64,000 nt of DNA, taken from contig CAVVYR010000008.1 in the NCBI GenBank assembly GCA_963752475.1, positions 544,001-608,000 of the forward strand. The letters are read 5' to 3'. Position numbers and translations under genes: made by a program. The notes below the pieces were generated by a model. That model was not told where the DNA came from and searched no databases. It saw only the letters and a list, made by a program, of their open reading frames with translations. This DNA comes from an uncultured Chloroflexia bacterium. GTDB lineage: Bacteria; Chloroflexota; Limnocylindria; Limnocylindrales; CSP1-4. Shown here piece by piece: positions 31,608 to 49,202 of the stretch; the first letter of the stretch is position 1, and each line of letters opens with the position of its first letter.

Positions 31608-31631
31608 ATGTCTGGTCGTCGCCGCCATGGC
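31608..31631. repeat. Site B0 (right half only; left boundary of array)
   Basis: ATGTCTGGTCGTCGCCGCCATGGC followed by tail D; left half absent or degenerate. Confidence 0.75.
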
Positions 31632-31662
31632 TGGGCGGCGCAGCCGAGGCGGCGCGCTGGGA

Positions 31663-32283
31663 CTAGTCAGCTGGTGGCCCGGTGGGCAACGGATACAGCT
31701 GGCGGCCCCCGGTCATGTCCGGGACCGGCTCGTCGGGGAACGACAGCATCTCGGCCTCGAAGATGTGGCCTTCGTATGCCAGGTCCCACGGGCCTTCCGC
31801 GTCCGCTGGGGTCACCCCGTGCAGCAGCGCATAGAGTCCCTCGTAGGCACCCTCACCGGCTAGGACGTAGAAGCTGTACCGCTTGCCGCCGCCGTTGACC
31901 CAGCGTCCGGTGCCACGCCAGCGCCCGTCCTCATCTTCCAGCAAGCTCCGGCTGACCGTGTTCATGGCGCCGTCGAGCACGTCCGACGGCTTCCAGATGA
32001 GCGTGTAGTCGAGCGTGAGCCAGAGGTCGTTCGGGAGTCGTGGGTCGCTCCACTCGACCACCTGGCGCATGAGAGCTGGCCGGCCCGTCCCGACCGTGAT
32101 CTCATACCCCCGCACGTCGGAGGGGACGTTCGCTTCGCTGAAGCTGTGGCCGTACACCTCGACCACGGTGCCGGTGACGAACGTTACCGGGGCCGGCACT
32201 TCCTGTGCCGCTGCGGTGGTTGCCAATCCGAAGCACAGCGCCAGGCTACCGAGGAGCGTCAGCGAGGCTCGAGCTGCAGGCAT
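31663..32283 (-). CDS. Secreted 'SDPRL'-family paralog 1
   Basis: Signal peptide; EWSDPRL, G.W.G.G, GEGAYEGL, YEG.IFE. Confidence 0.85.
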   Translation of the reverse strand: MPAARASLTLLGSLALCFGLATTAAAQEVPAPVTFVTGTVVEVYGHSFSEANVPSDVRGYEITVGTGRPALMRQVVEWSDPRLPNDLWLTLDYTLIWKPSDVLDGAMNTVSRSLLEDEDGRWRGTGRWVNGGGKRYSFYVLAGEGAYEGLYALLHGVTPADAEGPWDLAYEGHIFEAEMLSFPDEPVPDMTGGRQLYPLPTGPPAD

Positions 32284-32306
32284 TACGCACCTCCAAGTGC
32301 CCGCGC

Positions 32307-32379
32307 GCGGGCCGGGTCCGCCAGTGGCTTGACGCGGTCCAGGCGGCCATGGCTGGGGCCGCGCGTCATCGCCTCCCGC
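32307..32379 (-). ncRNA. c-di-GMP-II-like riboswitch, copy 1
   Basis: P1 GCGGG/CCCGC; K-turn-like GAUGA; pseudoknot CCGCC/GGCGG; 23 nt before ATG. Confidence 0.75.
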
Positions 32380-32431
32380 TAACTACGATTCTCTCTCGCG
32401 CGTCCATCAAGGCCGCCTGAGCAGCGTCCGA

Positions 32432-32478
32432 AATCGCCATGTATAACGGGTCTCGGTCTGATCGTTGCCGCCATGGCG
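32432..32478. repeat. Site B1
   Basis: AATCGCCATGTATAACGGGTCTCGGTCTGATCGTTGCCGCCATGGCG. Confidence 0.85.
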
Positions 32479-32703
32479 CAGGCAGCCGAGGTGACGATGG
32501 GCTAGTCCATGGGGTCAGGCTCGGTGGTGACCGGAACCGGAGCCTCTGGGAACGCCAGCATGTCGCCCTCGAAGACGTAGCCCTCATAGGAGACATCGGT
32601 CGGGCTTGGCATCCGCACCCCCGGTCCCCAGGGCACGGCGTGCAATCCCTCGTAGGCACCTTCGCCGGTCAACTCGTAGAAGCTGTACTTGCCGTGGGAG
32701 CTA

Positions 32704-33875
32704 GTGCCTCATGCCGCAATGGCGGGGAGCGAATGATGGACCTCGGCCTTGATGCGCCAGGGCTTGGCTGGGCGGCAGTTCCGGTTGTGCCAGCGGAGGT
32801 AGGCATGGATGGCCGCACCCTGCTCGTCGTGGCTGGCGTGGTCGCTGCCGTTGAGCGCGAAGCGCCGGAGGGCCTGGAACTGGCACTCGATGAGGTTGAG
32901 CCAGCTCGCGTAGGTGGGCAGGTACACGAGTTCGATGTCGTGCGCGTCGGCCCACTCGCGGAGCTCCTTCTTGAGATGCGGGCTGAAGTTGTCGAGCACC
33001 ACGATGAGGTGCTCGTCGAAGCGGGCCCGCAGCGAGCGCAGCAGCTCGCGCACCTCGCGCCAGGTCTTGGTCGCCCGGATGTGGCCGTAGAGCTTGCCGC
33101 TCGCGGGATCGTAGGCCGCGAGCAGCTGGCGCACGCCCGCGGTGCGCGTGTAGGTGGCCCGGAGGCGGGCCGGGTGCTTGCTCGGATGCCAGCCCGCTCC
33201 GAGGCGTGGCTGCAGGTTCAAGGGGCCGAACTCGTCGAGGCAGAGCACCCGGCTGCCCGCGGGCGGATGGGCGTAGAGGTCGAGCACGCGGTTCTTCTTG
33301 GCCTCGAAGTCCGGATCGGGCGAGGCCTTCGGGGTCTTGTGGTGCAGGAAGCGGATGCCATGCTCACGCAGGATGCGCCGGAGCTGGCTCCCGCTGATGG
33401 TCGGCACCACTCGCGTCCGGAGCAGGTGGTCGCGCAGCTTGGTCAGACTCCAGTCGGTGAAGGGCTCACCGAGGTCTCGGGGACGGGCGAGAGCCACCTT
33501 CACGATGGCCGCGCGCTGGGCCTCATCGATCCGGCGTGGTCGGCCCCCGCCCTTCCGAGGGTCCAGGGCCGCGAAGCCCCGCTCGTCGAAGGCGTGGATG
33601 AGTTCGGCCACGTGCGTCGCGCTGGCGCGGTGCAGCCGCGCGATCTCGGGCACGCTCTGGCCCTGGAACGAGGCGAAGAGGAGCATCGCCCGGTGCTGCG
33701 TGGTCGGGTTCGTACTGCGACGAGCGAGCCTGAGCAGGTGCATCGCCTCCCCATCGCTGAGCTCACGGATGAACAACTCGGGCCGGCGGGCCATCTGCAC
33801 CTCCCTGCGACGACGGGCCGAGGGTCGACCCTTGCGACAGTGCGATTACCTACCGGACATTATGAATCGAGGCAC
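32704..33875 (-). mobile_element. IS630-family insertion sequence
   Basis: TA duplication (32702-03 and 33876-77) within CTAG; terminal inverted repeat GTGCCTC, extending imperfectly to ~25 bp. Confidence 0.92.
32709..33800 (-). CDS. IS630 transposase
   Basis: HTH, GGGRP, WSL..L, CLDE, VLDNFSPH, LPTYASWLN.IE. Confidence 0.93.
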   Translation of the reverse strand: MQMARRPELFIRELSDGEAMHLLRLARRSTNPTTQHRAMLLFASFQGQSVPEIARLHRASATHVAELIHAFDERGFAALDPRKGGGRPRRIDEAQRAAIVKVALARPRDLGEPFTDWSLTKLRDHLLRTRVVPTISGSQLRRILREHGIRFLHHKTPKASPDPDFEAKKNRVLDLYAHPPAGSRVLCLDEFGPLNLQPRLGAGWHPSKHPARLRATYTRTAGVRQLLAAYDPASGKLYGHIRATKTWREVRELLRSLRARFDEHLIVVLDNFSPHLKKELREWADAHDIELVYLPTYASWLNLIECQFQALRRFALNGSDHASHDEQGAAIHAYLRWHNRNCRPAKPWRIKAEVHHSLPAIAA

Positions 33876-34303
33876 TAGCGATCAATCGCCCGGTGCCACT
33901 CCAACTCCCGACCTCATCCACCAACAGATGGTTGGTCGCGATGGTGGTCCATCCCCACTCGTCGGCAGGATGGGACACCGACTGGTGGTCCAGGGTGAAC
34001 CAGTGCTCGGCGGGGAGTCGTGGGTCGCTCCACTCGACTCGCTGCTCGATGAGGTCCACCCGGCCGCCGCTGGTCACCTCGTAGTCCCCCACGATGGTCG
34101 GCGGGTCTGGCTCGATGTCCTCCCAGTCCCGTGCTTCGGTGTGCACCGTCATGTCCCATGGGAACCCGGTCACGAAGGTGATGGGGCCAGGTCCCTCTGA
34201 CTGCGCAGCCGCCGTGATGAGCAGGCTGGCGAGCAGGACAAGAGCGGATGCCCCCGCCAGTACTGTCCGCAATGTACGCATCTCGCACCTCCTGGGTGCA
34301 TGC

Positions 34304-34378
34304 GCGGGCCGGGTTCGCCAGTGGCTCGGCGCGACTCAGGCGGCCAACGTACGCGAGTCGGACTTCACGGCCTCCCGC
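34304..34378 (-). ncRNA. c-di-GMP-II-like riboswitch, copy 2
   Basis: Same fold; inner stem shows compensatory GACUC/GAGUC. Confidence 0.75.
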
Positions 34379-34418
34379 TACCGATGATTCTCTCGCGAGC
34401 GTCCATCGGCAATCCCGA

Positions 34419-34463
34419 AATCGCCATGAATAGCGGGTTTGGTCTGGTCGTCGCCGCCATGGC
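34419..34463. repeat. Site B2
   Basis: AATCGCCATGAATAGCGGGTTTGGTCTGGTCGTCGCCGCCATGGC. Confidence 0.9.
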
Positions 34464-34490
34464 ACAGGCAACCGAGGCGGCCAGAAAGGG

Positions 34491-35372
34491 TTACTCGGCG
34501 GGCTTGGCCTCCGTCGTCCCGTCAACATCCGTCAGCGTGGCGCTCTCCACAACCGCAGGCTCGTCCGATGCGTTTCGGATCACATAGACCGTGTCGCCCG
34601 CGAATGAACCCGACGTGAGAATGTCGGCATCGGGCGCGATGAACCTGACCGAGTCGGTCAGCGCCCCGTCGACCTCGGATGGGGCAGCGAAGCCGCTCTC
34701 CAAGCGACCCTCTTCAAGCGCCAGGAGGCGCAGCACCCCGGCTTCGTCAGAGTCAAGCACCAGCTGGCCGCCGGGATCGAACGTGATTCGTTCGAGGATG
34801 ACCGCGACCGGGGCACTGATCAGCTCGGTCAGGGTCTCCTCGGCCGGGAAGTCCCAGACCAGCAACTGGTAGTCAGCACCCGGAGCAGGCTCCCTCGGTG
34901 TCTGCGGCTCAATGCTGTTGGCGATGCCCACGATGAACGATACGTACGGTTCCGTACCGTCGATCACCCACGAGCCCGAAGCCGCGCCGTCGTAGTACAG
35001 CACCACGTCACCAGCACCGAGGGCGATGGTGGCCATCGGGTCCGGAGCTCCATCGGAGCCGTCCTCACCCCAGAGGTGTGCCCGCGTGTCCTTCACGACC
35101 TGCGCGCTCCCTTGCTCCACGTACTCGACGTAGGTGTAGCCCGCTGGTTCCTCCGACCCTTCCTCAGCGCTGCTGCTCGGCTCGACCATGACACGCGCGA
35201 ACCACGTGTGATCGACATCCGGGGGTATGGCTTCCACAGGGATGACACCGCGGTCGCTCAGGACATCGACGTCGACGCCGGACGTACCTCCTTCTGCCGC
35301 GACCGCAGGCCCGAGACTGAGAACCAGCATCGTGAGAGCGGTGCCCGCGAGGCACTGACGTACGGTACGCAT
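34491..35372 (-). CDS. Secreted acidic protein, probable double cupin-like fold
   Basis: MRTVR signal peptide; 'YVEQGS','LGAGDVV' and 'RITFDPG','LEEGRL','RNASDEPA'. Confidence 0.7.
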   Translation of the reverse strand: MRTVRQCLAGTALTMLVLSLGPAVAAEGGTSGVDVDVLSDRGVIPVEAIPPDVDHTWFARVMVEPSSSAEEGSEEPAGYTYVEYVEQGSAQVVKDTRAHLWGEDGSDGAPDPMATIALGAGDVVLYYDGAASGSWVIDGTEPYVSFIVGIANSIEPQTPREPAPGADYQLLVWDFPAEETLTELISAPVAVILERITFDPGGQLVLDSDEAGVLRLLALEEGRLESGFAAPSEVDGALTDSVRFIAPDADILTSGSFAGDTVYVIRNASDEPAVVESATLTDVDGTTEAKPAE

Positions 35373-35389
35373 GGATCCCCCTTTCCAGC

Positions 35390-35462
35390 GCGGGCCGGGT
35401 TCGCCAGTGGCTCGGCGCGGCTCAGGCGGCCATGGTGTGGGCCGTGCGTCGTCGCCTCCCGC
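35390..35462 (-). ncRNA. c-di-GMP-II-like riboswitch, copy 3
   Basis: Conserved P1, pseudoknot and 3' GAGCCACUGGCGAACCCGGCCCGC. Confidence 0.75.
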
Positions 35463-35501
35463 TCAGTTGATTCTCTCGCGGGCGTCCAACGGTTCGCACG
35501 A

Positions 35502-35547
35502 AGTCGCCATGAATAGCGGGTTATGTCTGGTCGTCGCCGCCATGGCG
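35502..35547. repeat. Site B3 (TTATGTCTGGT variant)
   Basis: AGTCGCCATGAATAGCGGGTTATGTCTGGTCGTCGCCGCCATGGCG. Confidence 0.9.
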
Positions 35548-35583
35548 CCCGTGCGTCCGGCAGCCGAAGGCGGTGCGAGGGGG

Positions 35584-36135
35584 TTACTCGGCAGGCGGCA
35601 AGACCCACTCTGGTGGCTCGGGCCAAGCGCCGGGGATGATGACCCCCTCGACCTCCCAACCACCGGGAGCCGGACGCTGGATTAGCATGGCCGAGAGGCC
35701 CTCGTACCCATGCTCACCGGTGAAGTAGTTCACGTAGTGGCTGACTCCGGTGCCCGGCGTGAAGCCCTGACCCGCCATGGTCCAGGAACCGCCGTCGTTC
35801 GTCAGGCGTCCGATGAGCGTGCGCACCGTGGCCCCGGAGCCGTAGACGTCATAGTTGGAGTTCGCCTCCAACTCTCCGCTCAACCGCGGGTCGTCGGTCT
35901 CCAGGCTCAACGTCCAGCCGTAGTTCCGCGTGGACGCGACCATCGGCTGCGGCGAAGTCTCGGTCTGGGCGGACTGGTTCGGGGCGACGGCGCGGATGGT
36001 GCCGGTGACGACGGCGGGCGCGAGAACATCGGCTTCCGAAGCCGGGTCAGCATCCCGCGCCACGCCGGTGACGCTCGACGGTCCGAGCAGCGCCAGGGCG
36101 ACGGTCCCCACCAAGGACAACCGCAACGTACGCAT
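35584..36135 (-). CDS. Secreted 'SDPRL'-family paralog 3
   Basis: MRTLRLSLVGT signal; DDPRLSG, LTNDGGSW, GEHGYEGLSA. Confidence 0.85.
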   Translation of the reverse strand: MRTLRLSLVGTVALALLGPSSVTGVARDADPASEADVLAPAVVTGTIRAVAPNQSAQTETSPQPMVASTRNYGWTLSLETDDPRLSGELEANSNYDVYGSGATVRTLIGRLTNDGGSWTMAGQGFTPGTGVSHYVNYFTGEHGYEGLSAMLIQRPAPGGWEVEGVIIPGAWPEPPEWVLPPAE

Positions 36136-36153
36136 GACATCCCCCGTTCGTGT

Positions 36154-36226
36154 GCGGGCCGGGTTCGCCAGTGGCTCGGCGCGGTCCAAGGCGGCCATTG
36201 CTGGACCGCGCTTCGAAGCCTCCCGC
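36154..36226 (-). ncRNA. c-di-GMP-II-like riboswitch, copy 4
   Basis: Perfect 10-bp inner stem GCGCGGUCCA/UGGACCGCGC. Confidence 0.78.
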
Positions 36227-36275
36227 TATGTAGATTCTCTCGCCGACGTCCATCGGCTCCTCGGCCGTGCTCCAG

Positions 36276-36321
36276 AATCGCCATGCATAGCGGGTCATGC
36301 CTGGTGGTCGCCGCCATGGCG
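36276..36321. repeat. Site B4
   Basis: AATCGCCATGCATAGCGGGTCATGCCTGGTGGTCGCCGCCATGGCG. Confidence 0.85.
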
Positions 36322-36347
36322 CAGGCAGCTGGGGTGGGGGAATGGGG

Positions 36348-36947
36348 TCAGCCGAAGAAGACCGCGTCGATCAGCGCGAGCAGTGCGAACAGGGCGACGG
36401 GCAGCACCACGATTCCCAGCGCGATCAGGATCAGGAGTTCTCGGTCCGGGCGGCGAATCCCCTTGCTGCGGCGTCGGATGATGCTCCCGACCCTGTCGCC
36501 GAAGGCGGCGCCGATCGAGACCGTCACGAGCGCAGCGACGATGCCGTCGGGGATGTCGTCCTCGGGAAAGCCGAGTCGGCCACCGATACCGGTACTGAGG
36601 GCGAATCCGACGAGGGCTGCCGCCGCCATGGCGCCGATGAGACCGACCACACCGAGGCGTCGTCGTGGGGACGGCGAGTGCCCGATGATTCCCGCCGGGA
36701 CGACCGCGATGAGGATGCAGGCTGCCCAGAGGGTGATGGTCTCAGCAGACAGACCCCGGTAGCACCCCCAGCACTCCGGGTCGTCGTATCCGGGTTCGTA
36801 GAACTCCTGGATCATGTCCACCCACGCCGCTCCGAGCACGAGGCCGAGGACGAGGCAGAGTGCCGCTGCTACCGCGATGGCCGCGATGATTCGCCCGACG
36901 CCCGCAATCGGATCGACGCTGGTCCCACCCACGGGACGAGGTGCCAT
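36348..36947 (-). CDS. Hypothetical membrane protein (~5 TM) cassette
   Basis: Hydrophobic segments; CWGC motif in the first loop. Confidence 0.65.
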   Translation of the reverse strand: MAPRPVGGTSVDPIAGVGRIIAAIAVAAALCLVLGLVLGAAWVDMIQEFYEPGYDDPECWGCYRGLSAETITLWAACILIAVVPAGIIGHSPSPRRRLGVVGLIGAMAAAALVGFALSTGIGGRLGFPEDDIPDGIVAALVTVSIGAAFGDRVGSIIRRRSKGIRRPDRELLILIALGIVVLPVALFALLALIDAVFFG

Positions 36948-37031
36948 GTCTGTCGCCCCTCCATCCACCGATCCGCCAATCCCGATCGTCGCCGGTGTCA
37001 GCGTCGGGTCAAGCAAGGTGCAGCCGTGCTA

Positions 37032-37049
37032 CGTCTCGTAGCCTCCCGC
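37032..37049 (-). ncRNA. Riboswitch remnant, copy 5 (5' end only)
   Basis: GCGGGAGGCUACGAGACG matches the 5' end of copy 11; the rest is missing. Confidence 0.6.
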
Positions 37050-37089
37050 TACCTACAATTCTCTCGCGGGCGTCCATCAGCCGACCCTG

Positions 37090-37135
37090 AATCGCCATGA
37101 ATAGCGGGTTTGGTCTGGTCATCTCCGCCATGGCG
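37090..37135. repeat. Site B5
   Basis: AATCGCCATGAATAGCGGGTTTGGTCTGGTCATCTCCGCCATGGCG. Confidence 0.9.
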
Positions 37136-37318
37136 GTTGACCGCGCTTCGATACTTAGGCACAGAAACGGGGGCACCCGGGGCGATGAGACGCTTCCTGT
37201 CCCGACGGCCAGATCCAGAGCGTCGCTTCGTCGAGCTCCTCGAGCGCGCTCGCGTGATGACGGATCCTTCATGGCGCGACCACGCCACGTCCGACGAGCA
37301 GCTCGCGATCAGGGCGCA

Positions 37319-37933: not shown

Positions 37934-37946
37934 CCCCTCCTGTCAC

Positions 37947-38014
37947 GTTCCGCAAGTGGCGTGGCGCGGTCTGGGGCGACCGTGGTCGACGGGCCGTGCG
38001 TCATCGCCTCCCGC
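37947..38014 (-). ncRNA. Degenerate riboswitch, copy 6 (3' P1 strand lost)
   Basis: 5' two-thirds conserved; CCGG-CCCGC missing. Confidence 0.6.
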
Positions 38015-38064
38015 TACACCCAATTCTCTCGCGGGCGTCCATCAACCACCCTTGAACAGCACGG

Positions 38065-38110
38065 AATCGCCATGAATAGCGGGTTTGGTCTGGTCGTCGC
38101 CGCCATGACG
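38065..38110. repeat. Site B6
   Basis: AATCGCCATGAATAGCGGGTTTGGTCTGGTCGTCGCCGCCATGACG. Confidence 0.9.
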
Positions 38111-38136
38111 CAGGCAGCCGAGGCGGCGCGCTGGGA

Positions 38137-39131: not shown

Positions 39132-39181
39132 TACGATCGGTTCTCGCGCGAGTGTCTATACGCTCCTCTGAGCGCTACCGG

Positions 39182-39227
39182 AATCGCCATGTATAGCGGG
39201 TTTGGTCTGATCGTCGCCGCCATGGCG
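39182..39227. repeat. Site B7
   Basis: AATCGCCATGTATAGCGGGTTTGGTCTGATCGTCGCCGCCATGGCG. Confidence 0.9.
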
Positions 39228-39285
39228 CAGGCAGCCGAGGCGAGCCTTGACCGGCGGAGGACTATGGAGGCACGCAGTTCGGGGC

Positions 39286-40482: not shown

Positions 40483-40509
40483 CGGGAGCCACGCAGCAGC
40501 CCCGCTCAG

Positions 40510-40555
40510 TATCGCCATGAATAGCGGGTTTGGTCTGGTCGTCGCCGCCAGGGCG
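40510..40555. repeat. Site B8 (no riboswitch or tail)
   Basis: TATCGCCATGAATAGCGGGTTTGGTCTGGTCGTCGCCGCCAGGGCG, between two convergent genes. Confidence 0.9.
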
Positions 40556-40694
40556 ACACGCTGTGGGCTAGCCCGTCCGCGCCTGGGTGACGCGGCTTCT
40601 TTCAGGCTTCGCGACTGGGCATGCACGCCAGTCGGATCCACACTGGGTGCGACTCGATCTCAGGTGTTCTAGGTGAGCGTCGACGCGAGCGCGC

Positions 40695-41569: not shown

Positions 41570-41618
41570 TACTGCTGATTCTCTCGCGGGCGTCCATCGT
41601 GTTCGAGCGCACTACCGG

Positions 41619-41664
41619 AATCGCCATGTATAGAGGGTTTGGTCTGGTCGTCGCCGCCATGGCG
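41619..41664. repeat. Site B9
   Basis: AATCGCCATGTATAGAGGGTTTGGTCTGGTCGTCGCCGCCATGGCG. Confidence 0.9.
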
Positions 41665-41690
41665 CGGGCAGCCGAGGCGGCGCGATGGGG

Positions 41691-42908: not shown

Positions 42909-42924
42909 GACATCCTCCTCATCC

Positions 42925-42998
42925 GCGGGCCGGGTTCGCCAGTGGCTCGGCGCGGTCCAGGCGGCCCTGGTGGTAGGCCGTGCGTCGCAGCCTCCCGC
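42925..42998 (-). ncRNA. c-di-GMP-II-like riboswitch, copy 9
   Basis: Full-length conserved unit, 16 nt before ATG. Confidence 0.75.
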
Positions 42999-43054
42999 TA
43001 GGTCCATTGTCTCGCGGGTGTCCATGGGCAGGCAGCCGAGGCGGCGCGATGGGC

Positions 43055-43960
43055 TTACTGGAGGAGCTCCATCACGGTCTCGATCGTGAGGTCGCCCGGC
43101 GTGATGTGGCCACCGGCGAACTCCACCAGCTCGACGTCGTACCCGGCTTCGGCGAGCACGGCCTCGAACGCGGCTGAGTTCTCCGGCGATACTGTCGAGT
43201 CATCCTCCCCGTGGACCAGCCGTACCCGCAGCTCAGGATGCACCCCGACCGCGCCGTAGAGCATCTCCCACAGCTCGGGTTCATGCTCCATCAGGAGGTC
43301 GCGGCCGTACCTGCCCTCGTAGCCCACGAAGGCGTCGTAGGCGCCCGCGACGCCCATGAAGCCATCGACACGGGTCGAGGCGTCGCTGGCCGTGCACTCG
43401 AACTGGGATGGCGGACCACCTGCGGACTCGGCGTACTCGTCCCACACGCGGTCGAAGTCCTCTCCGACGAGCGCGACATGTGCCGGCGGTCCGCCATCCA
43501 GCGACCACCCGGTCAACACCAGCGGCGCCGTCTCGCTGCCGTACTCCGAGCCACGGGCGAAGCGCACGGCGCAGGCCACGGCCTCCACGGCCGCGCGGAC
43601 GACCGTCGGGTCCGCATGGAGCACGACCTCCGACCACTGGAGCGGGGGCGAGCCGGTCACGAAGACGGACACACCCTGCTCGGCCAGTGCCTTCGAATTC
43701 ACCGCCGACCCGCCTACGCTGACGACCATGGGTGCATCCTCGCTCTCGGCAGTGACGTGGACACGGAGCTTCAGCTCGGTCCCCTCACCATCCGGTGAAC
43801 TTCCCGTGGCGTAGACGAGGTCCTTGATGACCGAGACCTCGGCCGGAGAGTCCGATGTCGCACCAGCTGACTCGTCGCCGTCGGTCTGGGCAGCCACGCC
43901 GAGCGGCAGCATGGCCACCGCCACGGCCACCCCCGCCAACACTGCTCGCGGCGTTCGCAT
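43055..43960 (-). CDS. Secreted alpha/beta hydrolase
   Basis: GWSLDG nucleophile elbow, HG.DD, GGH; MRTPR signal. Confidence 0.8.
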   Translation of the reverse strand: MRTPRAVLAGVAVAVAMLPLGVAAQTDGDESAGATSDSPAEVSVIKDLVYATGSSPDGEGTELKLRVHVTAESEDAPMVVSVGGSAVNSKALAEQGVSVFVTGSPPLQWSEVVLHADPTVVRAAVEAVACAVRFARGSEYGSETAPLVLTGWSLDGGPPAHVALVGEDFDRVWDEYAESAGGPPSQFECTASDASTRVDGFMGVAGAYDAFVGYEGRYGRDLLMEHEPELWEMLYGAVGVHPELRVRLVHGEDDSTVSPENSAAFEAVLAEAGYDVELVEFAGGHITPGDLTIETVMELLQ

Positions 43961-43978
43961 GACACTCCCCCTTCATGT

Positions 43979-44053
43979 GCGGGCCGGGTTCGCCAGTGGC
44001 TCAGCGTGGTCCAGGCGGCCAACGTCGAGGAGCCGCGCGTCAGCGCCTCCCGC
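43979..44053 (-). ncRNA. c-di-GMP-II-like riboswitch, copy 10
   Basis: Full-length conserved unit. Confidence 0.73.
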
Positions 44054-44104
44054 TACTGATGATTCTCTCGCGTGCGTCCACCGGCTCGATGGGCACTCGT
44101 CCAG

Positions 44105-44150
44105 AATCGCCATGAATAGCGGGTTATGTCTGGTGGTCGTCACCATGGCC
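44105..44150. repeat. Site B10 (TTATG variant)
   Basis: AATCGCCATGAATAGCGGGTTATGTCTGGTGGTCGTCACCATGGCC. Confidence 0.88.
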
Positions 44151-44229
44151 AATCACGCCGCCGGGCCGTCCGGCCCTTGACCCGCTGAGCGGGGCGCGGA
44201 GGATAGGGTCGCGAGCCAGGAGGGGGAAC

Positions 44230-45492
44230 GTGATGTCCAAGCGAGGCGGGGCCTTGGCGCCGACGCTGCCGCGGATTCTGCTGGCGCTCCTGGCCATGCC
44301 CCTGGCGCTCGCGGCGAGCGCGGGCGCGCCCCACGCCGCCGCTGAGCCCGTGGATGCGATGCCTACGATCACGCTTGTCGAGCAGCGTGTAATCAGAATC
44401 GCGGACAGTCAGTTGCTCTCGCTGTCGCCTGACGGTGGCTCGATCGTCGTCACCCGACCAGCTGGGCCGATGCCAACCGAGCTCTGTATCCACGAGGTGG
44501 CGACGCTCGCCGTGCGCATCTGCGCGGACGTCAGTGACCTCGATGCGGGCCTCTGGCCCGACAGCGTGGTCTGGTCACCCGACAGTGCGTGGCTGGCCTT
44601 CGCCGAGCTGTGGCCCATGTTCTTGGTCGATGGCGACCTGTGGCTCATGGACGCCTCCACTGGTGCGCTCGGCAACTTGCTCGACGATGGCTTCAGCGGC
44701 GCCCTGGGGGAAGCGGCTGCAGGCGAACTCACCTGGAAGGGCGTCATCACGCTGCCGATGTACCCGACGTTCACGCCTGACAGCGCCGCGGTGACGTTCT
44801 CGCGGACCACGGTCCAGGCCGGCGAGTTCAGCGGTGTTGGGGACATCGCAACGCTCCCCATCACCGGTGGCGATGCGGTCACGCTGGGCGGTTCCGAACG
44901 CGAGGAGTTGGTCGGCGAGTATCGCACCATGCAGTGGGCAGCAGACGGATCCGCCCTCTATGTCTCCCTCGTCGACCAGCAGGCTTCAAGGCTCGGACCT
45001 GACAGCGGGATCTGGGTGTTCGAGGCTGATGGAAGGCACGCCCGCCAACTCCTGAGCATCACTGGCCGCGACGACTGGCCGACGCGCATCTTGGCGGTGT
45101 CCCCGCGTGGGGAGCGCCTCCTCGTATCGGACCCGAGGGCGGCCGCGGGCGGCGCCCCGCTATGTGCTTGCTCGGTGGTCGATGGCTCGACCGGAGCCGC
45201 GGAGCCCATCGAGCCGCTGGGATCGGAAGCCCGCCAGTCCACGCCCATCACCGGGGCGATGCTCTCGCCGGATGGGTCGCTGGTGATCACGGTCTCAGGC
45301 CATCTCGAGAAGCAGGTGGCCGTCCGGGAGGTGGCAACGTCGAACGAGACGGTCCTGCTACGGGAGCCGTCTGGGACCGCCCCATCGGACCTCGCGGGCG
45401 AGGTCCTGACCTGGGCCCAGGACGACACGGTGCTGGTCGATGGAGCCAGACGCGGCCGCGGTACGCTGATCGTCCTCGACCGGGGAAGCTAG
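44230..45492 (+). CDS. Secreted TolB/WD40-like beta-propeller protein
   Basis: Signal peptide; LSPDG, WSPDS, FTPDS, LSPDG blades; GGAGG RBS. Confidence 0.8.
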   Translation: MMSKRGGALAPTLPRILLALLAMPLALAASAGAPHAAAEPVDAMPTITLVEQRVIRIADSQLLSLSPDGGSIVVTRPAGPMPTELCIHEVATLAVRICADVSDLDAGLWPDSVVWSPDSAWLAFAELWPMFLVDGDLWLMDASTGALGNLLDDGFSGALGEAAAGELTWKGVITLPMYPTFTPDSAAVTFSRTTVQAGEFSGVGDIATLPITGGDAVTLGGSEREELVGEYRTMQWAADGSALYVSLVDQQASRLGPDSGIWVFEADGRHARQLLSITGRDDWPTRILAVSPRGERLLVSDPRAAAGGAPLCACSVVDGSTGAAEPIEPLGSEARQSTPITGAMLSPDGSLVITVSGHLEKQVAVREVATSNETVLLREPSGTAPSDLAGEVLTWAQDDTVLVDGARRGRGTLIVLDRGS

Positions 45493-45585
45493 GGCAGAGC
45501 CTGGCAGCGACGTCGTCGGGGCCAAGCCTGCGACAAGCCGTGCGGCTGCCAAGAGGCGTCAAGCTCCGCCTAGACGGTCGTGTGG

Positions 45586-45631
45586 GATCGCCATGAATAG
45601 CGGGTTTGGTTTGGTCGTCGCCGCCATGGCG
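45586..45631. repeat. Site B11 (no riboswitch)
   Basis: GATCGCCATGAATAGCGGGTTTGGTTTGGTCGTCGCCGCCATGGCG, between convergent genes. Confidence 0.9.
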
Positions 45632-45660
45632 CAGGCCGCCGAGGCGAAGCGATGGGGCTG

Positions 45661-46860
45661 CTACTCGATGGCCGATGCAGCGTCCGGGGTGATCACGTAG
45701 GTCTCGATGCTGTCCCGGGCCAGGCCGAGCGTCTGGAGCTCGGTCCCATCTTCAAGGGTCACGACGTCCCCATCGGATGTGGATGCGGCCCTGACCCACA
45801 CGTTGCCATCAACGTCGATATCGATCTCCTGGACGCACCGGTCCGTCAGGAAGCGACGCCAGGTCGTGCCATCGAAGCGGCCGAGACCGTCGCAGGAGAC
45901 CAGGTGCGAGCACATGACCCCGCAGGGCTGCTCGGTCTTGAAGGACGCCCACAGACTGCCATCCGGCCCCAGCACGCCAGGGTTCCACCACGCGGACGTC
46001 GTGCCACCGACGGGTAGGGGCACCTCGAGTCGCTGCTTGTCGCCGTTCTCTTTCAAGGAGCGGATGACGATGCTCTCGCCGCCGAGCGCCAGGGTCCGGA
46101 CTGCACCGTCGCTTCCGATGACGAAACCGTATCCTGGCAACCCTGCCACGGGCATCCAGCCATCGTCGGTGAGGCGGCTCACGGCCGTCTTCCGGCGCAG
46201 CCACAGCGCACCGTCCGGGGCCACGTCCCACGACCTGATGTTGTTGGCCTTCGGCTTGTCCGCCGGGTGCTTGGGCAGGCGGGTCCAGGAGTCGCCTTCG
46301 AGACGCAGGAATCGACCGCCGCCCGGGCGATCGGTCTCCCTCAAGGCCCACACGGTGCCATCGGGTTGGAGGCGGAAGTCGAGACCCTCGTACACGTTGC
46401 CCGTGCGCTTGAGCCGCGGCCGCCAAGCGGTACCGTCATGCGAGTAGAGGGTCCAGCGGACGGGCCGGCCTTCCACGGTCCCGTCATGGGCGACGATCCA
46501 CGGCGTGCCATCCGATCCGACCTGGACCGGCCACGGGACGTTCTCCCGCGTCCGCCCGTCCGGGTAGGGAAGCTCCTGCTCTGCACCCAACTCGAGGAGA
46601 TCCCGGTCCCCCATGAGCCACACGCTGCCATCAAGGCCGATGGCCAACTCATCGTTCAGGCCGCTCCTCCCGATCGATCCCGCAAGCTCTCGAACACCGC
46701 CCCCAAGGACCCGTAGGACACCCGGTTCGACCTCCTCGGTCACCAGGCCCGCGAGCAGCCCGCCGGTACCGCTCTGGCCGCTGGCCTCTTGCCCCGCTGC
46801 GGCAGTGCTCGAGGTCAGGACCAAGGCAAGCGTCAACGCCGTCGCGATACGTGCACGCAT
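45661..46860 (-). CDS. Secreted beta-propeller protein (DG.VW repeats)
   Basis: Signal peptide; repeated 'DG(S/T).W' and 'FDG..W'. Confidence 0.8.
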   Translation of the reverse strand: MRARIATALTLALVLTSSTAAAGQEASGQSGTGGLLAGLVTEEVEPGVLRVLGGGVRELAGSIGRSGLNDELAIGLDGSVWLMGDRDLLELGAEQELPYPDGRTRENVPWPVQVGSDGTPWIVAHDGTVEGRPVRWTLYSHDGTAWRPRLKRTGNVYEGLDFRLQPDGTVWALRETDRPGGGRFLRLEGDSWTRLPKHPADKPKANNIRSWDVAPDGALWLRRKTAVSRLTDDGWMPVAGLPGYGFVIGSDGAVRTLALGGESIVIRSLKENGDKQRLEVPLPVGGTTSAWWNPGVLGPDGSLWASFKTEQPCGVMCSHLVSCDGLGRFDGTTWRRFLTDRCVQEIDIDVDGNVWVRAASTSDGDVVTLEDGTELQTLGLARDSIETYVITPDAASAIE

Positions 46861-46877
46861 GACGTCCCCTCTTGCAT

Positions 46878-46953
46878 GCGGGCCGGGTTCGCCAGTGGCT
46901 CGGCGCGGTCCAAGGCGGCCAACGTACACAGGCCGCGTCTCGTAGCCTCCCGC
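46878..46953 (-). ncRNA. c-di-GMP-II-like riboswitch, copy 11
   Basis: Full-length conserved unit. Confidence 0.73.
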
Positions 46954-46992
46954 TACCTACGATTCTCTCGTGGGCGTCGACCGCGATCACAG

Positions 46993-47038
46993 ATCCGCCA
47001 TGAATGGCGGGTTTGGTCTGGTCGTCGCCGCCATGGCG
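46993..47038. repeat. Site B12
   Basis: ATCCGCCATGAATGGCGGGTTTGGTCTGGTCGTCGCCGCCATGGCG. Confidence 0.88.
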
Positions 47039-47064
47039 CCGGCAGGCGAAGCGGCGCATGGGAA

Positions 47065-47097
47065 CCCCGCCCCCGGTCCTCCACGCCGGGGGCGGGG
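47065..47097. terminator. Strong GC hairpin (no U-tract)
   Basis: CCCCGCCCCCGG-9 nt-CCGGGGGCGGGG. Confidence 0.4.
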
Positions 47098-47162
47098 CCT
47101 ACAGGGGGGTGCCTGGTTGACAAGTCCTGAGCGCCGCAGGCAGCCGAATCGGCGCGATGGGG

Positions 47163-47732
47163 TCACTCGGCAGGCGGTCCTGGCAGCGGTGGCAGTCCGC
47201 TCTCGATGATCCAGCCTTCATACTGCTCGTCCCACGGTCCGTCGGGGTCGTGGTCGGGCGCACCTCGCAGCAGGGCGTGCATGTCCTCGTAGGCCCCGTC
47301 ACCCTCCAGAACGTAGTAGCTGTAGTGCCGCTCCGGGTCGGGACCGTAGCCCTGCTTGATGGCCCGCCCGGTGCCATGCCAGCGGCCCTCAGAGCCGTCC
47401 AGCAGGACGTTCATCTCGGTGACCATCACGAAGTAGTCCTCGATGGCCTCCACGTCGACCTCCTCGCCCTCGAGTTCGGGCGGCACGTCACCATAGAGGT
47501 ACCAGGCACCCTCGACCTCGAGCGTCGGCGGCAGGCGCGGGTCGCTCCACTCCACGGTCTGCTCCCACGTGGCGCGGCCCTCGTCCTCGGTCGCGGAGTC
47601 ATTGGTGTCACCGACCGCCGTGCCGGTGACGAAGACGGCGCGGACCGCCTCCTTGTTCATCTGCGCGGCGACCGCGACCGTGGAACCGAAGACCAGCGCC
47701 ACGGCGACGGCGACCACCCATGGCGTACGCAT
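47163..47732 (-). CDS. Secreted 'SDPRL'-family paralog 6
   Basis: EWSDPRLP, GRWHGTG, GDGAYE, YEGWIIE. Confidence 0.85.
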   Translation of the reverse strand: MRTPWVVAVAVALVFGSTVAVAAQMNKEAVRAVFVTGTAVGDTNDSATEDEGRATWEQTVEWSDPRLPPTLEVEGAWYLYGDVPPELEGEEVDVEAIEDYFVMVTEMNVLLDGSEGRWHGTGRAIKQGYGPDPERHYSYYVLEGDGAYEDMHALLRGAPDHDPDGPWDEQYEGWIIESGLPPLPGPPAE

Positions 47733-47750
47733 GACATCCCCCTTCCTTCT

Positions 47751-47824
47751 GCGGGCCGGGTCCGCCAGTGGCTCGGCGCGGTCCAAGCGGCCATGGTGGT
47801 GGGCCGTGCGTCATCGCCTCCCGC
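47751..47824 (-). ncRNA. c-di-GMP-II-like riboswitch, copy 12
   Basis: Full-length unit with GGCGG pseudoknot strand. Confidence 0.75.
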
Positions 47825-47898
47825 TACGTCAGATTCTCCACCTGGCGGCAATCAAGGTCTCCTGACGAGCCGAAGGCAGCCCCGGCGGCGCGATGGGG

Positions 47899-49023
47899 TC
47901 ACTCAGGGAACGTCTGCATCCCTTCGGTCGTGACCGACTCCGGCTGGGCCGGGAACACCATCGGGTCGGTCTCGAAGATGTAGCCCTCGTACGAGTGGTC
48001 GAGTGGTCCGCTGGCATCTGCACCCGGAGTCATACGCAACACGGCCCAGAGTCCGTCGTAGGCGCCCTCGCCGGTCAGTTCGTAGAGGCTGTAGCGGTGG
48101 TCGAGACCCTCGACCGCTCGACCGGTACCCCGCCAACTTCCCTCAGGGCCTTCCAGCAGGTTGCTGGTCGTGACGGCCATCGCGCCCTCCGGAGGCCCCT
48201 GCGCCTCTCGCGGGTCGAGGATGAAGGCGAGGTTCATGTTCATCCAGTGCTGCGATGGCAGGCGCGGGTCGCTCCATTCGATGACTTGCTCGATGACCCC
48301 GTAACTCTCAGCGCCGACCAACCAGCCCCCCACCTCGTGGGGTGGTCCTTCGACGATGGTGTTCGCCCCCGGGTGGTCGTACTGCTCGACCACGGTCCCG
48401 GTGACGAAGGTGACGGGAGCCGGTTCCTCGTCCTGCTCGGCCAGAGTCGCGGACAGAGGCAGCTCGATGGGGTCAGGCATCGGCGGCACCTCGCTCTCGA
48501 AGACGTAGCCGTCGTAGATGCTCGTGACGTGGCCGTCAGCATCGATGACCGGGTTGCCGCCAGCATCCACCACGAGCGACCCTTCGAGCATCGCCCAGAG
48601 ACCTTCGTACGCACCGCTGCCGGTGAGGACATACAGCCCGACCGACGACTCCGGGTCCACGAGCGAGTACTCCGTCCCGGCCCAGTCACCCTCCTCGCCG
48701 ACCAGCCGGACGGCGACGGCGAATGCTCCGACAGCGCCGTCTTCGAGTTCGTGCCAGTTGGCGTTGGTGTCGTACAAGAACCGCGACGGCAGACGCGGGT
48801 CACTCCACTCGACGGTGCGCTCGGTCAGCACGCCGCGCGAGTAGTGCACGTCACCGTCCTCCCACTCTACGGGTTCCGAAGTCATGGACGTGCTCAGCTG
48901 TGTGCCGGTGACGTGGGTCGCAGACGGCGCTTCGCCATCGTCCTGAGCCGTGACGAGCACGGCCAGACCGCCGACCAAGGCGAGCACGACCATCCCGGAC
49001 AGGGTATGCAGCAACGTTCGCAT
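47899..49023 (-). CDS. Secreted 'SDPRL'-family paralog 7 (two tandem domains)
   Basis: EWSDPRLP and G.GAY.GLWA each occur twice. Confidence 0.88.
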   Translation of the reverse strand: MRTLLHTLSGMVVLALVGGLAVLVTAQDDGEAPSATHVTGTQLSTSMTSEPVEWEDGDVHYSRGVLTERTVEWSDPRLPSRFLYDTNANWHELEDGAVGAFAVAVRLVGEEGDWAGTEYSLVDPESSVGLYVLTGSGAYEGLWAMLEGSLVVDAGGNPVIDADGHVTSIYDGYVFESEVPPMPDPIELPLSATLAEQDEEPAPVTFVTGTVVEQYDHPGANTIVEGPPHEVGGWLVGAESYGVIEQVIEWSDPRLPSQHWMNMNLAFILDPREAQGPPEGAMAVTTSNLLEGPEGSWRGTGRAVEGLDHRYSLYELTGEGAYDGLWAVLRMTPGADASGPLDHSYEGYIFETDPMVFPAQPESVTTEGMQTFPE

Positions 49024-49040
49024 GAGGTCCCCTCGCTTGA

Positions 49041-49115
49041 GCGGGTCGGGTTCGCCAGTGGCTCGGCGCGGTCCGGGCGGCCATGATCGAGGAGTCGCGC
49101 TTCATCGCTTCCCGC
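49041..49115 (-). ncRNA. c-di-GMP-II-like riboswitch, copy 13 (A/C/A pocket variant)
   Basis: GCGGGAAGCGAUGAA...GGCGAACCCGACCCGC; closest to the canonical consensus. Confidence 0.78.
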
Positions 49116-49165
49116 AACACCGATTCTCTCGCGGACGTCCAACCGCTCGAAGTCGGCTCGACGGG

Positions 49166-49202
49166 AATCACCATGAATAGCGGGTTATGTCTGGTCGTCG
49201 CC
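49166..49202. repeat. Site B13 (right end truncated; right boundary of array)
   Basis: AATCACCATGAATAGCGGGTTATGTCTGGTCGTCGCC, then unrelated sequence. Confidence 0.85.

What the first reader, a model, noticed from the sequence alone, without database searches (positions are those of the whole stretch)
31608..49202. Site B: 46-bp direct repeat resembling a recombination site, marking cassette borders regardless of gene orientation
Seen: consensus AATCGCCATGA-ATAGCGGG-TT(TG/AT)GTCTGGT-CGTCGCCGCCATGGCG in 13 copies plus one half, all in the same orientation. It persists where the other modules are absent and sits between convergent genes (B8, B11), so it is unlikely to be a promoter. Reading (i): an 11-8-11 tyrosine-recombinase core, CATGA-N8-TTATG. 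The TTATGTCTGGT arm (B3, B10, B13) resembles XerD arms of dif/cer sites, so host XerCD could act on it, which would explain the lack of a local integrase. Reading (ii): a single-strand hairpin CGCCATG(AATA bulge)GCGG / CCGC-CATGGCG with extrahelical bases, like attC or HUH/REP substrates. Caveats: 8 copies have TTTGG instead of TTATG, and I see no compensatory changes in the hairpin.
Basis: partly seen in the sequence, partly recalled or inferred. Interest (0 to 1): 0.82.

Follow-up and report, generated by a model that had tools for sequence, protein, structure and literature searches.

The report
Cassette-junction repeat in Chloroflexota array
A 46-base repeat sits at every joint of a very variable array of small, mostly secreted-protein genes in uncultured soil Chloroflexota; it looks like the recombination site at which gene cassettes are swapped, as in integrons but with a different site and no known enzyme.

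Summary
The window holds 13 copies plus one half copy of site B, all in one orientation. A 38-nt version gives 9 matches against 0 in 100 shuffles.

The genes lie on the minus strand, where B reads left arm, 13-bp core GCGACGACCAGAC, right arm. B was not found in 147 of 150 genomes of the family sample. It is multicopy in 13 of 40 same-genus genomes.

In 21 loci, all 150 aligned copies are co-oriented within their locus, while 81 genes run with B and 73 against it. Cassette content is highly variable and shuffled between species.

Variant sites share the core: left arm plus a second right arm at array ends (17), a second left arm plus that second right arm (3), and start-of-array hybrids.

Best reading (0.55): B is the attachment or junction site of a gene-cassette array, with exchange at the core. 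It works like an integron/CALIN or tandem-integration array but is not a member of either.

The conserved dif site found here resembles B poorly and the junction lies outside the proposed spacer. The hairpin shows 0 compensatory changes.

No recombinase was identified. Two recent copy events have borders outside the core.

The parts
31594..31631 (-). Array-end site: B left arm plus core GCGACGACCAGAC, followed by a different right arm (ATCGTACGCCTGGCG).
   Evidence: model positions 6-28; type P-O-B'. One search shows the same roughly 38-nt site at 87-97% identity at many array ends in other genomes.
32429..32481 (-). B copy 1. It follows the tail module and precedes the promoter-like box and the riboswitch of gene 31663-32283.
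   Evidence: aptamer start 54 nt after B
34416..34467 (-). B copy 2
   Evidence: 42 nt to the aptamer
35499..35549 (-). B copy 3 (ATAA variant after the core)
   Evidence: 41 nt
36272..36324 (-). B copy 4
   Evidence: 51 nt
37087..37136 (-). B copy 5, with no tail module on its left. Its left flank is homologous to the left flank of a B in G155 whose right flank matches the right flank of copy 8.
38062..38113 (-). B copy 6
   Evidence: 52 nt
39178..39230 (-). B copy 7. The 5' end of + strand gene 39247-40482 is on its left; a riboswitch-led minus-strand gene is on its right.
40507..40556 (-). B copy 8, between convergent genes (40695-41522 on the minus strand and 39247-40482 on the plus strand). 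No promoter or riboswitch lies beside it.
41615..41667 (-). B copy 9
   Evidence: 51 nt
44101..44151 (-). B copy 10, between divergent units. On its left is the promoter-like leader of + strand gene 44230-45492; on its right is the riboswitch-led gene 43055-43960.
45584..45634 (-). B copy 11, between convergent genes (45661-46929 on the minus strand and 44230-45492 on the plus strand)
46990..47041 (-). B copy 12
   Evidence: 41 nt
49164..49209 (-). Array-start site: core plus B right arm, with the usual left arm replaced by other sequence. Transposase remnants lie beyond it.
   Evidence: model 7-52; type x-O-P'; DDE_Tnp_1 and rve_3 fragments at 48851-51199

Best explanation
Site B is the junction (attachment-type) site of a highly variable gene-cassette array. 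On the array's strand (window minus strand) it reads left arm CGCCATGGCG, 13-bp core GCGACGACCAGAC, right arm CAAACCCGCTATTCATGGCG.

Each stretch between two B copies is a self-contained expression unit of one of two kinds:
- Forward unit: a promoter-like box ending in GAGAAT, a c-di-GMP-II-GCG/GAG variant riboswitch, a gene (often for a secreted protein), and a conserved tail module.
- Reversed unit: a gene with its own TTGACC-N16-GAGGAT promoter-like leader.

I propose that recombination at or next to the core inserts, deletes and reshuffles cassettes. The exchange would be between directly repeated B copies, and between B and a related palindromic chromosomal site that carries the same core. 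This would keep every B in one orientation whatever the orientation of the genes. It would also leave hybrid sites at the two ends of each array.

Shown: the anatomy, the conservation, the polarity, the hybrid site types, and the different cassette order between species.

Inferred: that the exchange is conservative and site-specific rather than homology-driven.

Unknown: the enzyme.
For: 1. Conservation. Nearly every one of about 45 positions is conserved (1.3-1.9 bits) in 150 aligned copies from 14 genomes, while the flanks differ.

2. Restricted distribution. At E<=0.001, 4 of 151 family genomes match (G000 plus three single weak partial hits). At E<=0.01, 22 of 41 genus genomes match, and 13 of 40 hold 5-41 copies.

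3. Polarity. All 150 copies are co-oriented within each of 21 loci, yet ORFs inside the arrays run 81 with B and 73 against it. Left-flank and right-flank types combine freely (tail|riboswitch 16, tail|reversed-gene end 5, leader|riboswitch 17, leader|reversed-gene end 22).

4. Cassette diversity and shuffling. The 201 ORFs fall into 178 orthogroups and 120 families, and shared orthogroups sit in different neighbourhoods. One B in G155 joins the left flank of window copy 5 to the right flank of copy 8.

5. Four site types share the core:
- full B: 106;
- B left arm plus a second right arm (GTCGTACGCCTGGCG): 17, each the last site of an array or next to a housekeeping gene, with different outer flanks;
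- a second left arm plus the second right arm: 3, at three unrelated loci (L131:958, L136:4700, L140:1463), forming an imperfect palindrome;
- other left arm plus B right arm at array starts (window 49164, L137:2857, L043:337).

6. One locus in different states. Beside the same conserved gene, G160 has one reversed cassette between a start-type and an end-type hybrid, G185 has the palindromic site alone, G182 and G174 have arrays ending there, and G161, G178, G180 and G183 have no site (9 of 21 loci readable). G000 also has none. Homology between genomes starts exactly at the core.

7. A recent copy. In G168, near-identity begins 3 nt left of the core.
Against: - No recombinase is linked to B. 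In G000 the only full tyrosine recombinases are one XerC/XerD-like pair, and neither they nor a third, fragmentary match lie near the array. G000 and G161 have no serine recombinase, and those of three other genomes lie on contigs without B sites. IS110-type genes are not adjacent. No HUH Y1 enzyme was found. Array flanks hold EF-G, IS21 and unrelated genes. These are incomplete MAGs (58-93% complete).
- Two recent copy events have borders outside the core. In G161 the shared block starts at the tail module and ends 4 nt after the second B. In G168 the block ends at the start codon. So homologous recombination or gene conversion between conserved modules also acts, and might explain everything.
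- I found no clean pair of an empty and an occupied site with both outer flanks conserved.
- Of the 53 of 150 copies that precede a riboswitch, 48 sit at 41-42 or 51-53 nt, one helical turn apart. This hints at a regulatory constraint.
- The second-arm sites occur only in the same clade plus one further genome, so they are not an independent housekeeping target.
Confidence: 0.55

Rival explanations
1. B has no dedicated recombinase. It is one of several conserved intergenic modules (tail module, B, promoter box, riboswitch, signal-peptide start, reversed-gene leader). Cassettes are shuffled by RecA-type homologous recombination and gene conversion between these modules. The hybrid sites are products of rare exchanges in the roughly 23-bp stretch of near-identity formed by the left arm and the core.
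For: Recent copy events have borders at other modules: the start of the tail module and 4 nt after a B in G161, and the start codon in G168. No candidate recombinase was found. Forward units share about 250 bp at 70-85% identity.
Against: The sharp borders of B's conservation next to unconserved spacers are not what gene conversion of whole intergenic regions would give. The second right arm is conserved at 87-97% at many loci with different outer flanks. The palindromic site with both second arms recurs at three unrelated loci. Unrelated genes in both orientations cannot arise by unequal crossing-over alone.
Confidence: 0.15
2. B is a double-stranded binding site for a regulatory or architectural protein, that is, an upstream activating or operator site, or an insulator between independently regulated units. 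Recombination at B would be incidental.
For: Of the 53 of 150 copies followed by the GAGAAT-type box and aptamer, 16 lie at 41-42 nt and 32 at 51-53 nt, while the spacer sequences vary. The forward promoter-like box has no conserved -35 element. B has outer dyad symmetry (CGCCATG ... CATGGCG).
Against: 97 of 150 copies have no such promoter downstream. In G000, 26 of the 35 riboswitch leaders listed have the same promoter-like box but no B within 170 nt. B keeps its orientation when the neighbouring gene is reversed. Copies 40507 and 45584 lie between convergent 3' ends. No regulator gene travels with the arrays. This reading does not explain the core-sharing hybrid sites.
Confidence: 0.15
3. 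One reading: B is an 11-8-11 XerC/XerD site related to dif, recombined by the host Xer proteins.
For: XerC/XerD-like genes are the only full tyrosine recombinases found in G000, and both are present in 5 of 5 B-bearing genomes tested. About 40% of copies carry TTAT(G) after the core. The left arm of one palindromic site (G185) shares 8 bases in a row with the dif XerD-type arm (my own comparison). The main arrays of four genomes lie 23-86 kb from dif on the same contig.
Against: The dif-like site matches B's proposed arms at 12 of 22 positions by my own count, and only in the minority variant. About half of the copies have TTTGG. Hybrid sites diverge inside the proposed XerD arm, not in the proposed 8-bp spacer. 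The arrays are not at dif.
Confidence: 0.06
4. B acts in RNA, as a 3'-UTR element, a terminator (intrinsic or Rho-dependent) or a processing site between units.
For: On the array strand B follows the stop codon and tail module of forward genes. The tail module can pair with the start of B (first fold). The central part is C-rich and G-poor (sequence).
Against: Folding z-scores range from -1.5 to +0.1. There is no U tract, no Rfam match at E<=10 apart from one chance-level hit, and no covariation. Nearly half of the genes are antisense to B, and 71 of 150 copies follow a reversed gene's 5' leader rather than a 3' end.
Confidence: 0.05
5. One reading: B works as a folded single strand (attC-like or an HUH/REP substrate) with extrahelical bases.
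For: The arms CGCCATG-GCGG and CCGC-(TATT)-CATGGCG are complementary in 91% of cells. The related palindromic site folds into a 9-bp stem (z -1.2 to -2.2).
Against: There are 0 compensatory changes in 1484 cells and 132 broken cells, and shuffles pair as well. DNA and RNA folds of B are no better than shuffles. The loop is the best-conserved part. Junctions map to the loop, not to an outer box. No Y1 HUH gene was found in 5 of 5 genomes, and there is no integron-type integrase beyond the Xer-like pair in G000. B is confined to arrays rather than dispersed.
Confidence: 0.04

Closest known systems
Integron cassette arrays and clusters of attC sites lacking an integrase (CALIN)
   Same: Arrays of up to tens of co-oriented repeats separate short, very diverse cassettes, mostly of unknown function. 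Cassette order differs between relatives, there are chimeric sites at the array ends, IS elements lie inside and beside arrays, and often no integrase is nearby. (Passages of PMC4889954 read; here.)
   Different: B is conserved in sequence rather than in fold, has no supported hairpin, and lacks the R-box motifs (recalled). The junction lies in the middle of the site rather than at one edge. Cassettes carry their own promoter-like boxes and riboswitches. Nearly half of the genes are reversed. No IntI-type gene was found.
Tandem site-specific integration with a common core (attL - attP - attR arrays of integrase-driven integrative elements)
   Same: Four site types are built from two left arms and two right arms around one identical core. 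Full sites lie inside the array and hybrids lie at its two ends.
   Different: The units are 0.6-2 kb cassettes with no integrase of their own, and no integrase was found nearby or shared by the genomes tested. The presumed chromosomal target occurs at several loci, and only within the clade that has B.
XerCD-dependent modules (dif modules bounded by pdif sites on Acinetobacter plasmids)
   Same: Small accessory modules are bounded by short conserved sites and shuffled without a recombinase of their own. (Search listing and abstracts only: PMC6449649, PMC13141974.)
   Different: B resembles the host dif-like site poorly. The sites are directly repeated here, whereas pdif sites alternate in orientation (recalled). 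The arrays are chromosomal.
REP/BIME-type intergenic palindromes
   Same: Short GC-rich elements with dyad symmetry lie downstream of genes. The related palindromic site sits just after the terminators of housekeeping genes.
   Different: B is confined to arrays (16-17 hits in 4.25 Mb, all but two of them in one locus). There is no RAYT-type Y1 gene and no structural covariation.

Membership tests
Integron attC site / CALIN | Imperfect palindrome that folds as a single strand, conserved in structure rather than in sequence | tested here: not met
   0 compensatory changes in 1484 cells, with pairing equal to shuffles; fold z about 0; sequence conserved at nearly every position, including the 'loop'.
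Integron attC site / CALIN | Outer R boxes with AAC / GTT core triplets, and crossover at the edge of the site (motifs recalled, not from a call) | tested here: not met
   By eye, the outer boxes of B are CGCCATG / CATGGCG. Hybrid sites diverge after the central core, not at an edge.
Integron attC site / CALIN | Integron-type tyrosine integrase next to the array or elsewhere in the genome (not required for a CALIN) | tested here: not met
   G000 has two full PF00589 matches (a Xer-like pair on C14) and one fragment. None lies near arrays in the 5 genomes. The assemblies are 78-89% complete.
Integron attC site / CALIN | At least two co-oriented sites separating short cassettes | tested here: met
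   150 of 150 copies are co-oriented within their 21 loci.
XerCD / dif-type site | Two 11-nt arms resembling the host dif arms around a 6-8-nt spacer | tested here: not met
   The dif-like site was found and is conserved as one copy in 25 of 41 genomes. By my own count, the arms of B match at 12 of 22 positions, and only in the TTATG variant.
XerCD / dif-type site | Strand exchange within the spacer | tested here: not met
   the site types diverge directly after ...CCAGAC, which lies inside the proposed XerD arm.
XerCD / dif-type site | XerC and XerD encoded by the host | tested here: met
   two matches of 144-158 bits in each of 5 of 5 genomes.
Integrase att sites with a common core (attP/attB/attL/attR logic) | An identical core shared by sites with different arms, with hybrids at the ends of the inserted DNA | tested here: met
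   counts of 106 / 17 / 3 / a few for the four combinations. Searches give their positions.
Integrase att sites with a common core (attP/attB/attL/attR logic) | Empty and occupied forms of one locus with both outer flanks conserved | tested here: inconclusive
   the right flanks are conserved and homology starts at the core, but the left flanks differ in every genome compared.
Integrase att sites with a common core (attP/attB/attL/attR logic) | A cognate integrase | tested here: not met
REP element with RAYT (HUH) transposase | Genome-wide dispersed palindromes plus a Y1 transposase gene | tested here: not met
   copies occur only in arrays. PF01797 found in 0 of 5 genomes.
Transcription-factor operator / upstream activating site | Fixed position and orientation relative to the regulated promoter, present at the promoters of the regulon | tested here: not met
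   only 53 of 150 copies precede the promoter-like box, though 48 of those fall in two phased distance classes; 26 of 35 leaders in G000 lack B; orientation is independent of the gene.
Intrinsic terminator | Stable GC-rich hairpin followed by a U tract on the transcribed strand | tested here: not met
   z from -1.5 to +0.1, and no U tract in the sequence.
c-di-GMP-II-GCG/GAG riboswitch (RF03170/RF03169) | Lies within the aptamer model | tested here: not met
   the aptamers end 41-54 nt downstream of B; no Rfam family matches the B region.

The most novel reading that the evidence does not exclude
B, the related palindromic site and their hybrids define a previously undescribed gene-cassette platform in Limnocylindrales-type Chloroflexota. 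It would be functionally analogous to an integron but built on a double-stranded site with a 13-bp core and run by a non-IntI enzyme (an unrecognised recombinase, or the host Xer pair used in a new way). Each mobile cassette would bring its own promoter, and often its own orphan riboswitch of the c-di-GMP-II-GCG/GAG type.
Probability: 0.35. Interest if true: 0.9.

Novelty: new variant of a known kind. Interest (0 to 1): 0.72.

Why it matters
If B is a true cassette attachment site, a common soil and sediment lineage with no cultured members has its own way of collecting and reshuffling dozens of small genes, many of them for secreted proteins. This would have evolved independently of integrons.

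The system offers short, well-defined substrates for finding the enzyme: full B, the palindromic site, and the two hybrids. It would also be a natural case in which each mobile cassette carries its own sensor (a riboswitch whose ligand is, to my knowledge, unknown) rather than relying on a common promoter.

Whatever the mechanism, B is a practical marker for finding these arrays and delimiting their cassettes in metagenomes.

Tried and rejected
- Public reads. One search found 5 runs. Four were laid on window 31000-50000. All are short contigs from metagenomes. The 15 listed joints link repeated modules with sides of 21-46 nt and could come from relatives or from assembly paths. One RNA library holds a few exact 150-260-nt contigs, but DNA carry-over cannot be excluded. 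This says nothing about transcription, ends or excision.
- Empty versus occupied site. Three genus-wide flank searches and pairwise BLAST gave conserved right flanks but never a conserved left flank.
- Linkage test. The two bases after the core agree between orthologous cassettes at their left border in 8 of 17 pairs, and at their right border in 7 of 24 pairs, with chance at 0.29. The direction fits exchange at the core, but the sample is too small.
- Recombinase hunt. I tested PF00589, PF00239, PF01548 and PF01797 in 5 genomes, array flanks, and the surroundings of three serine recombinases. Nothing is linked to B.
- Duplicate cassette in G174. At 88% identity through both flanking B copies, its borders cannot be resolved.
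- Rfam at E<=10 on a B region gave one chance-level hit.
- The reversed-gene leader as a structured RNA. RNAalifold on 41 of 46 leaders gave -0.75 kcal/mol and no covariation. I dropped four that looked degenerate and one duplicate.
- Earlier findings of the scan. Nothing for this place or sequence; one related note was found by words.
- Literature. No paper holds both 'Limnocylindria' and 'riboswitch'. Two papers mention c-di-GMP-II-GCG only in passing. I did not find the 2017 paper that defined the variants in the library.
- Supplementary files were not consulted.

Full report
OBSERVATION

The repeat is real. The repeat finder recovers it as families D2, D8 and D10. An alignment of 13 copies has 87% mean column identity. 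A sequence-only model built from that alignment (R1) finds the 13 copies and the half copy at 31609-31631, all on one strand. A 38-nt stretch with up to 3 mismatches occurs 9 times, against 0 in 100 shuffles. The rest of the 4.25-Mb assembly has only two more copies, on contigs C19 and C29.

SETTING

- By third-position G+C, the array's genes lie on the minus strand.
- Rfam finds ten c-di-GMP-II-GCG/GAG variant riboswitch aptamers in the window, all on the minus strand, and 35 in the genome (150 of 4285 first-look candidates were scored).
- On that strand a typical interval reads: stop codon, a conserved tail module, B, a variable spacer, a promoter-like box ending in GAGAAT, 4-6 nt, the aptamer, a ribosome-binding site, and a gene that often begins with a signal-peptide-like MRT(L/V)R....
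- Relatives found with a housekeeping protein are MAGs labelled Chloroflexia or Candidatus Limnocylindrales.

DISTRIBUTION

- In a sample of 150 other genomes of the family, R1 gave only three single, weak, partial hits.
- In 40 genomes of the same genus, 21 have a hit at E<=0.01 and 13 hold 5 to 41 copies.
- I fetched 20 array loci from 13 of these genomes. Together with the window and two own-genome loci, R1 gave 172 hits in 279,011 bases. The best 150 were aligned as A2.
- Nearly every position from CGCCATGG to CATGGCGAT carries 1.3-1.9 bits. Only the three bases after the core and one T in the right arm vary freely.

WHAT LIES BESIDE B

To the right of B, among the 150 aligned copies:
- 53 are followed by the GAGAAT box and the aptamer.
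- 29 are followed by the 3' end of a gene on the opposite strand whose product ends in ...FEFLPAEE-like residues.
- 68 are followed by something else.

To the left of B, among the same 150:
- 37 have the tail module after a forward gene.
- 71 have a conserved block that, read on the other strand, is the 5' leader of a reversed gene. It has an invariant TTGACC, 16 variable bases, and GAGGAT.
- 42 have something else.

The four combinations all occur. Inside the arrays, 81 ORFs run with B and 73 against it, yet all 150 copies are co-oriented within each of the 21 loci. ORFs were called by my own script with a third-position G+C filter, so the counts are approximate. An element tied to a gene's start or end would turn with the gene. 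B does not.

CASSETTES

- The 201 ORFs in and beside the arrays fall into 178 groups at 55% identity or more, and into 120 looser families.
- Where Pfam recognises them they are unrelated: BD-FAE esterase, RTX repeats, methyltransferase, GYD, M20 peptidase. Most have no match.
- The 19 groups shared between arrays sit in different neighbourhoods.
- One B of G155 has the left flank of window copy 5 and the right flank of copy 8.

SITE TYPES

Partial hits led to a 13-bp core, GCGACGACCAGAC. The counts were:
- 106 full B sites.
- 17 with the B left arm and a second right arm (GTCGTACGCCTGGCG or ATCG...).
- 22 with another left arm and the B right arm. Most of these are degenerate B, but window 49164, L137:2857 and L043:337 are the first sites of arrays.
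- 3 with a second left arm (CATGTnACnAGG) and the second right arm.
- 18 with the B left arm and a decayed or cut right arm.

The 17 are the last site of an array or lie next to a housekeeping gene, and their outer flanks differ. The same roughly 38 nt recur at 87-97% identity in many genomes. The three sites with both second arms lie at unrelated loci in three genomes and form an imperfect palindrome with a 9-bp stem.

One conserved gene (MQTGL...) is followed by different states in different genomes:
- In G185, the palindromic site alone.
- In G160, one reversed cassette between a start-type and an end-type hybrid.
- In G182 and G174, array ends.
- In G156, a partial site.
- In G161, G178, G180 and G183, no site.

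These come from the 9 of 21 loci where my anchor matched. G000 also has no site there. Homology between the genomes begins exactly at the core. This is the pattern that conservative recombination at a common core leaves. It is also the pattern of tandem insertions.

AGAINST A SIMPLE SITE-SPECIFIC PICTURE

I found no recombinase linked to B:
- G000 has one XerC/XerD-like pair and a fragment.
- G000 and G161 have no serine recombinase, and those of G155, G168 and G182 lie on contigs without B sites.
- IS110-type genes are elsewhere.
- No Y1 HUH gene was found in 5 of 5 genomes.
- Array flanks hold an EF-G paralogue, IS21 and unrelated genes.

Two recent copy events have borders outside the core:
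- In G161, the shared block runs from the start of the tail module to 4 nt past the second B.
- In G168, a near-identical block starts 3 nt left of the core and runs through the right arm, spacer, promoter box, riboswitch and ribosome-binding site to the start codon. Unrelated coding sequence follows it.

So homologous exchange between conserved modules certainly happens. I could not find an empty and an occupied form of one locus with both flanks conserved.

XerCD reading:
- A search for the inner dif arms gives a single site in the genome. It lies near a skew turning point of contig C7.
- With up to 3 mismatches it is present exactly once in 25 of 41 genus genomes, with variation mainly in the 6-nt spacer and 0 control hits. 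I take it as dif.
- By my own count, B matches its arms at 12 of 22 positions, and only in the TTATG variant.
- The site types diverge inside the proposed XerD arm.

Hairpin reading:
- It pairs in 91.1% of cells, but shuffles pair as well (91.4%). There are 0 compensatory changes in 148 distinct copies.
- Folds are no better than shuffles.

A REGULATORY ROLE?

- Of the 53 copies upstream of a riboswitch, 16 lie 41-42 nt and 32 lie 51-53 nt from the aptamer start. That is one helical turn apart, with varied spacer sequence. This is the best argument for a protein that works with the promoter.
- Against it: 97 of 150 copies have no such promoter. In G000, 26 of 35 leaders have the same box without B. 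The orientation rule is broken. The G168 event shows that core, right arm, spacer, promoter and riboswitch move as one block, so the two spacings may be inherited.

VERDICT

B is most likely the attachment or junction site of a cassette array (0.55). It works like an integron/CALIN array (passages of PMC4889954) or a tandem-integration array, but fails the membership tests for attC, dif and REP.

Remaining weight:
- Homology-driven shuffling without a dedicated enzyme: 0.15.
- A regulatory or architectural binding site: 0.15.
- The Xer reading: 0.06.
- An RNA-level role: 0.05.
- The single-strand hairpin reading: 0.04.

The riboswitch and promoter part of that note agrees with what I see. The evidence from B, which that array may lack, points the other way for this genus.

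Noticed in passing
window 27463-49121 (minus strand); whole genome: There are ten c-di-GMP-II-GCG/GAG variant riboswitch aptamers in the window and 35 in the genome. Nearly all are preceded at 4-8 nt by a box of the type TGGACGCCCGCGAGAGAAT (GAnAAT at a fixed distance), which looks like a -10 element placing the transcription start at the first base of the aptamer. No conserved -35 element was seen.
   Followed up: partly
window 44152-44229 (+) and, in decayed form, 39231-39290 (+); 46 distinct instances in other loci: Reversed genes share a conserved leader: an invariant GGCCGTCCGGCCCTTGACC, 16 variable bases, then GAGGAT(G), followed by a ribosome-binding site. RNAalifold finds no structure, so it reads as a promoter (-35 TTGACC, -10 GAGGAT). 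Its -10 resembles the GAGAAT of the forward units.
   Followed up: partly
window, directly after minus-strand stop codons, e.g. 41668-41693, 38114-38139, 47042-47070; also without B at 42345-42375, 43025-43055, 47869-47900: A roughly 26-nt tail module (CCCCATCGCGCCGCCTCGGCTGCC-like) follows the stop codon of forward genes, with or without B. It can pair with the first bases of B. Its function was not examined.
   Followed up: no
window 32709-33800 (-) and 49300-51280: An IS630-type transposase (DDE_3 plus HTH domains) interrupts one cassette. Decayed DDE_Tnp_1 and rve-type fragments lie just beyond the first site of the array, so the upstream end of the array may be truncated.
   Followed up: partly
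G000:C7:606488-606515: A likely dif site, present as a single copy in 25 of 41 genus genomes. In G155, G168, G174 and G182 the main B array lies 23-86 kb from it on the same contig, so the arrays may be terminus-proximal.
   Followed up: partly
L052:13233-13268 and L054:8015-8049: In two genomes B is cut at the same base (after CCCGCT) by the same foreign end (GATATACGTCCTTGTTG-like). In G169 the inserted DNA holds an IstB-like gene by BLAST clustering, so this may be an IS21-type element that targets B, or one inherited insertion. A third B (L049:3970) is cut at the same base by other DNA.
   Followed up: no
L135:773-830 (G182:C17): An end-type site is followed after 12 nt by a second partial core and a B right arm. 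This places an end hybrid and a start hybrid back to back.
   Followed up: no
L043:6951-7145 and L044:3167-3361 (G168): A roughly 190-nt block (core, right arm, spacer, promoter box, riboswitch, ribosome-binding site, start codon) is nearly identical in front of two unrelated genes 10 kb apart. It is a clear case of a regulatory 5' module being copied onto another gene.
   Followed up: yes
G000:C8:638082-638109 (contig end): An end-type site lies at the very end of the window's contig, about 400 nt after a 488-aa gene. A further array probably follows and broke the assembly.
   Followed up: no
window 27130-27549 (-): A riboswitch of the same class, outside the array and without B, precedes a 108-aa DUF5658-like membrane protein gene. 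A MarR-family gene lies 1.2 kb upstream of that riboswitch.
   Followed up: no
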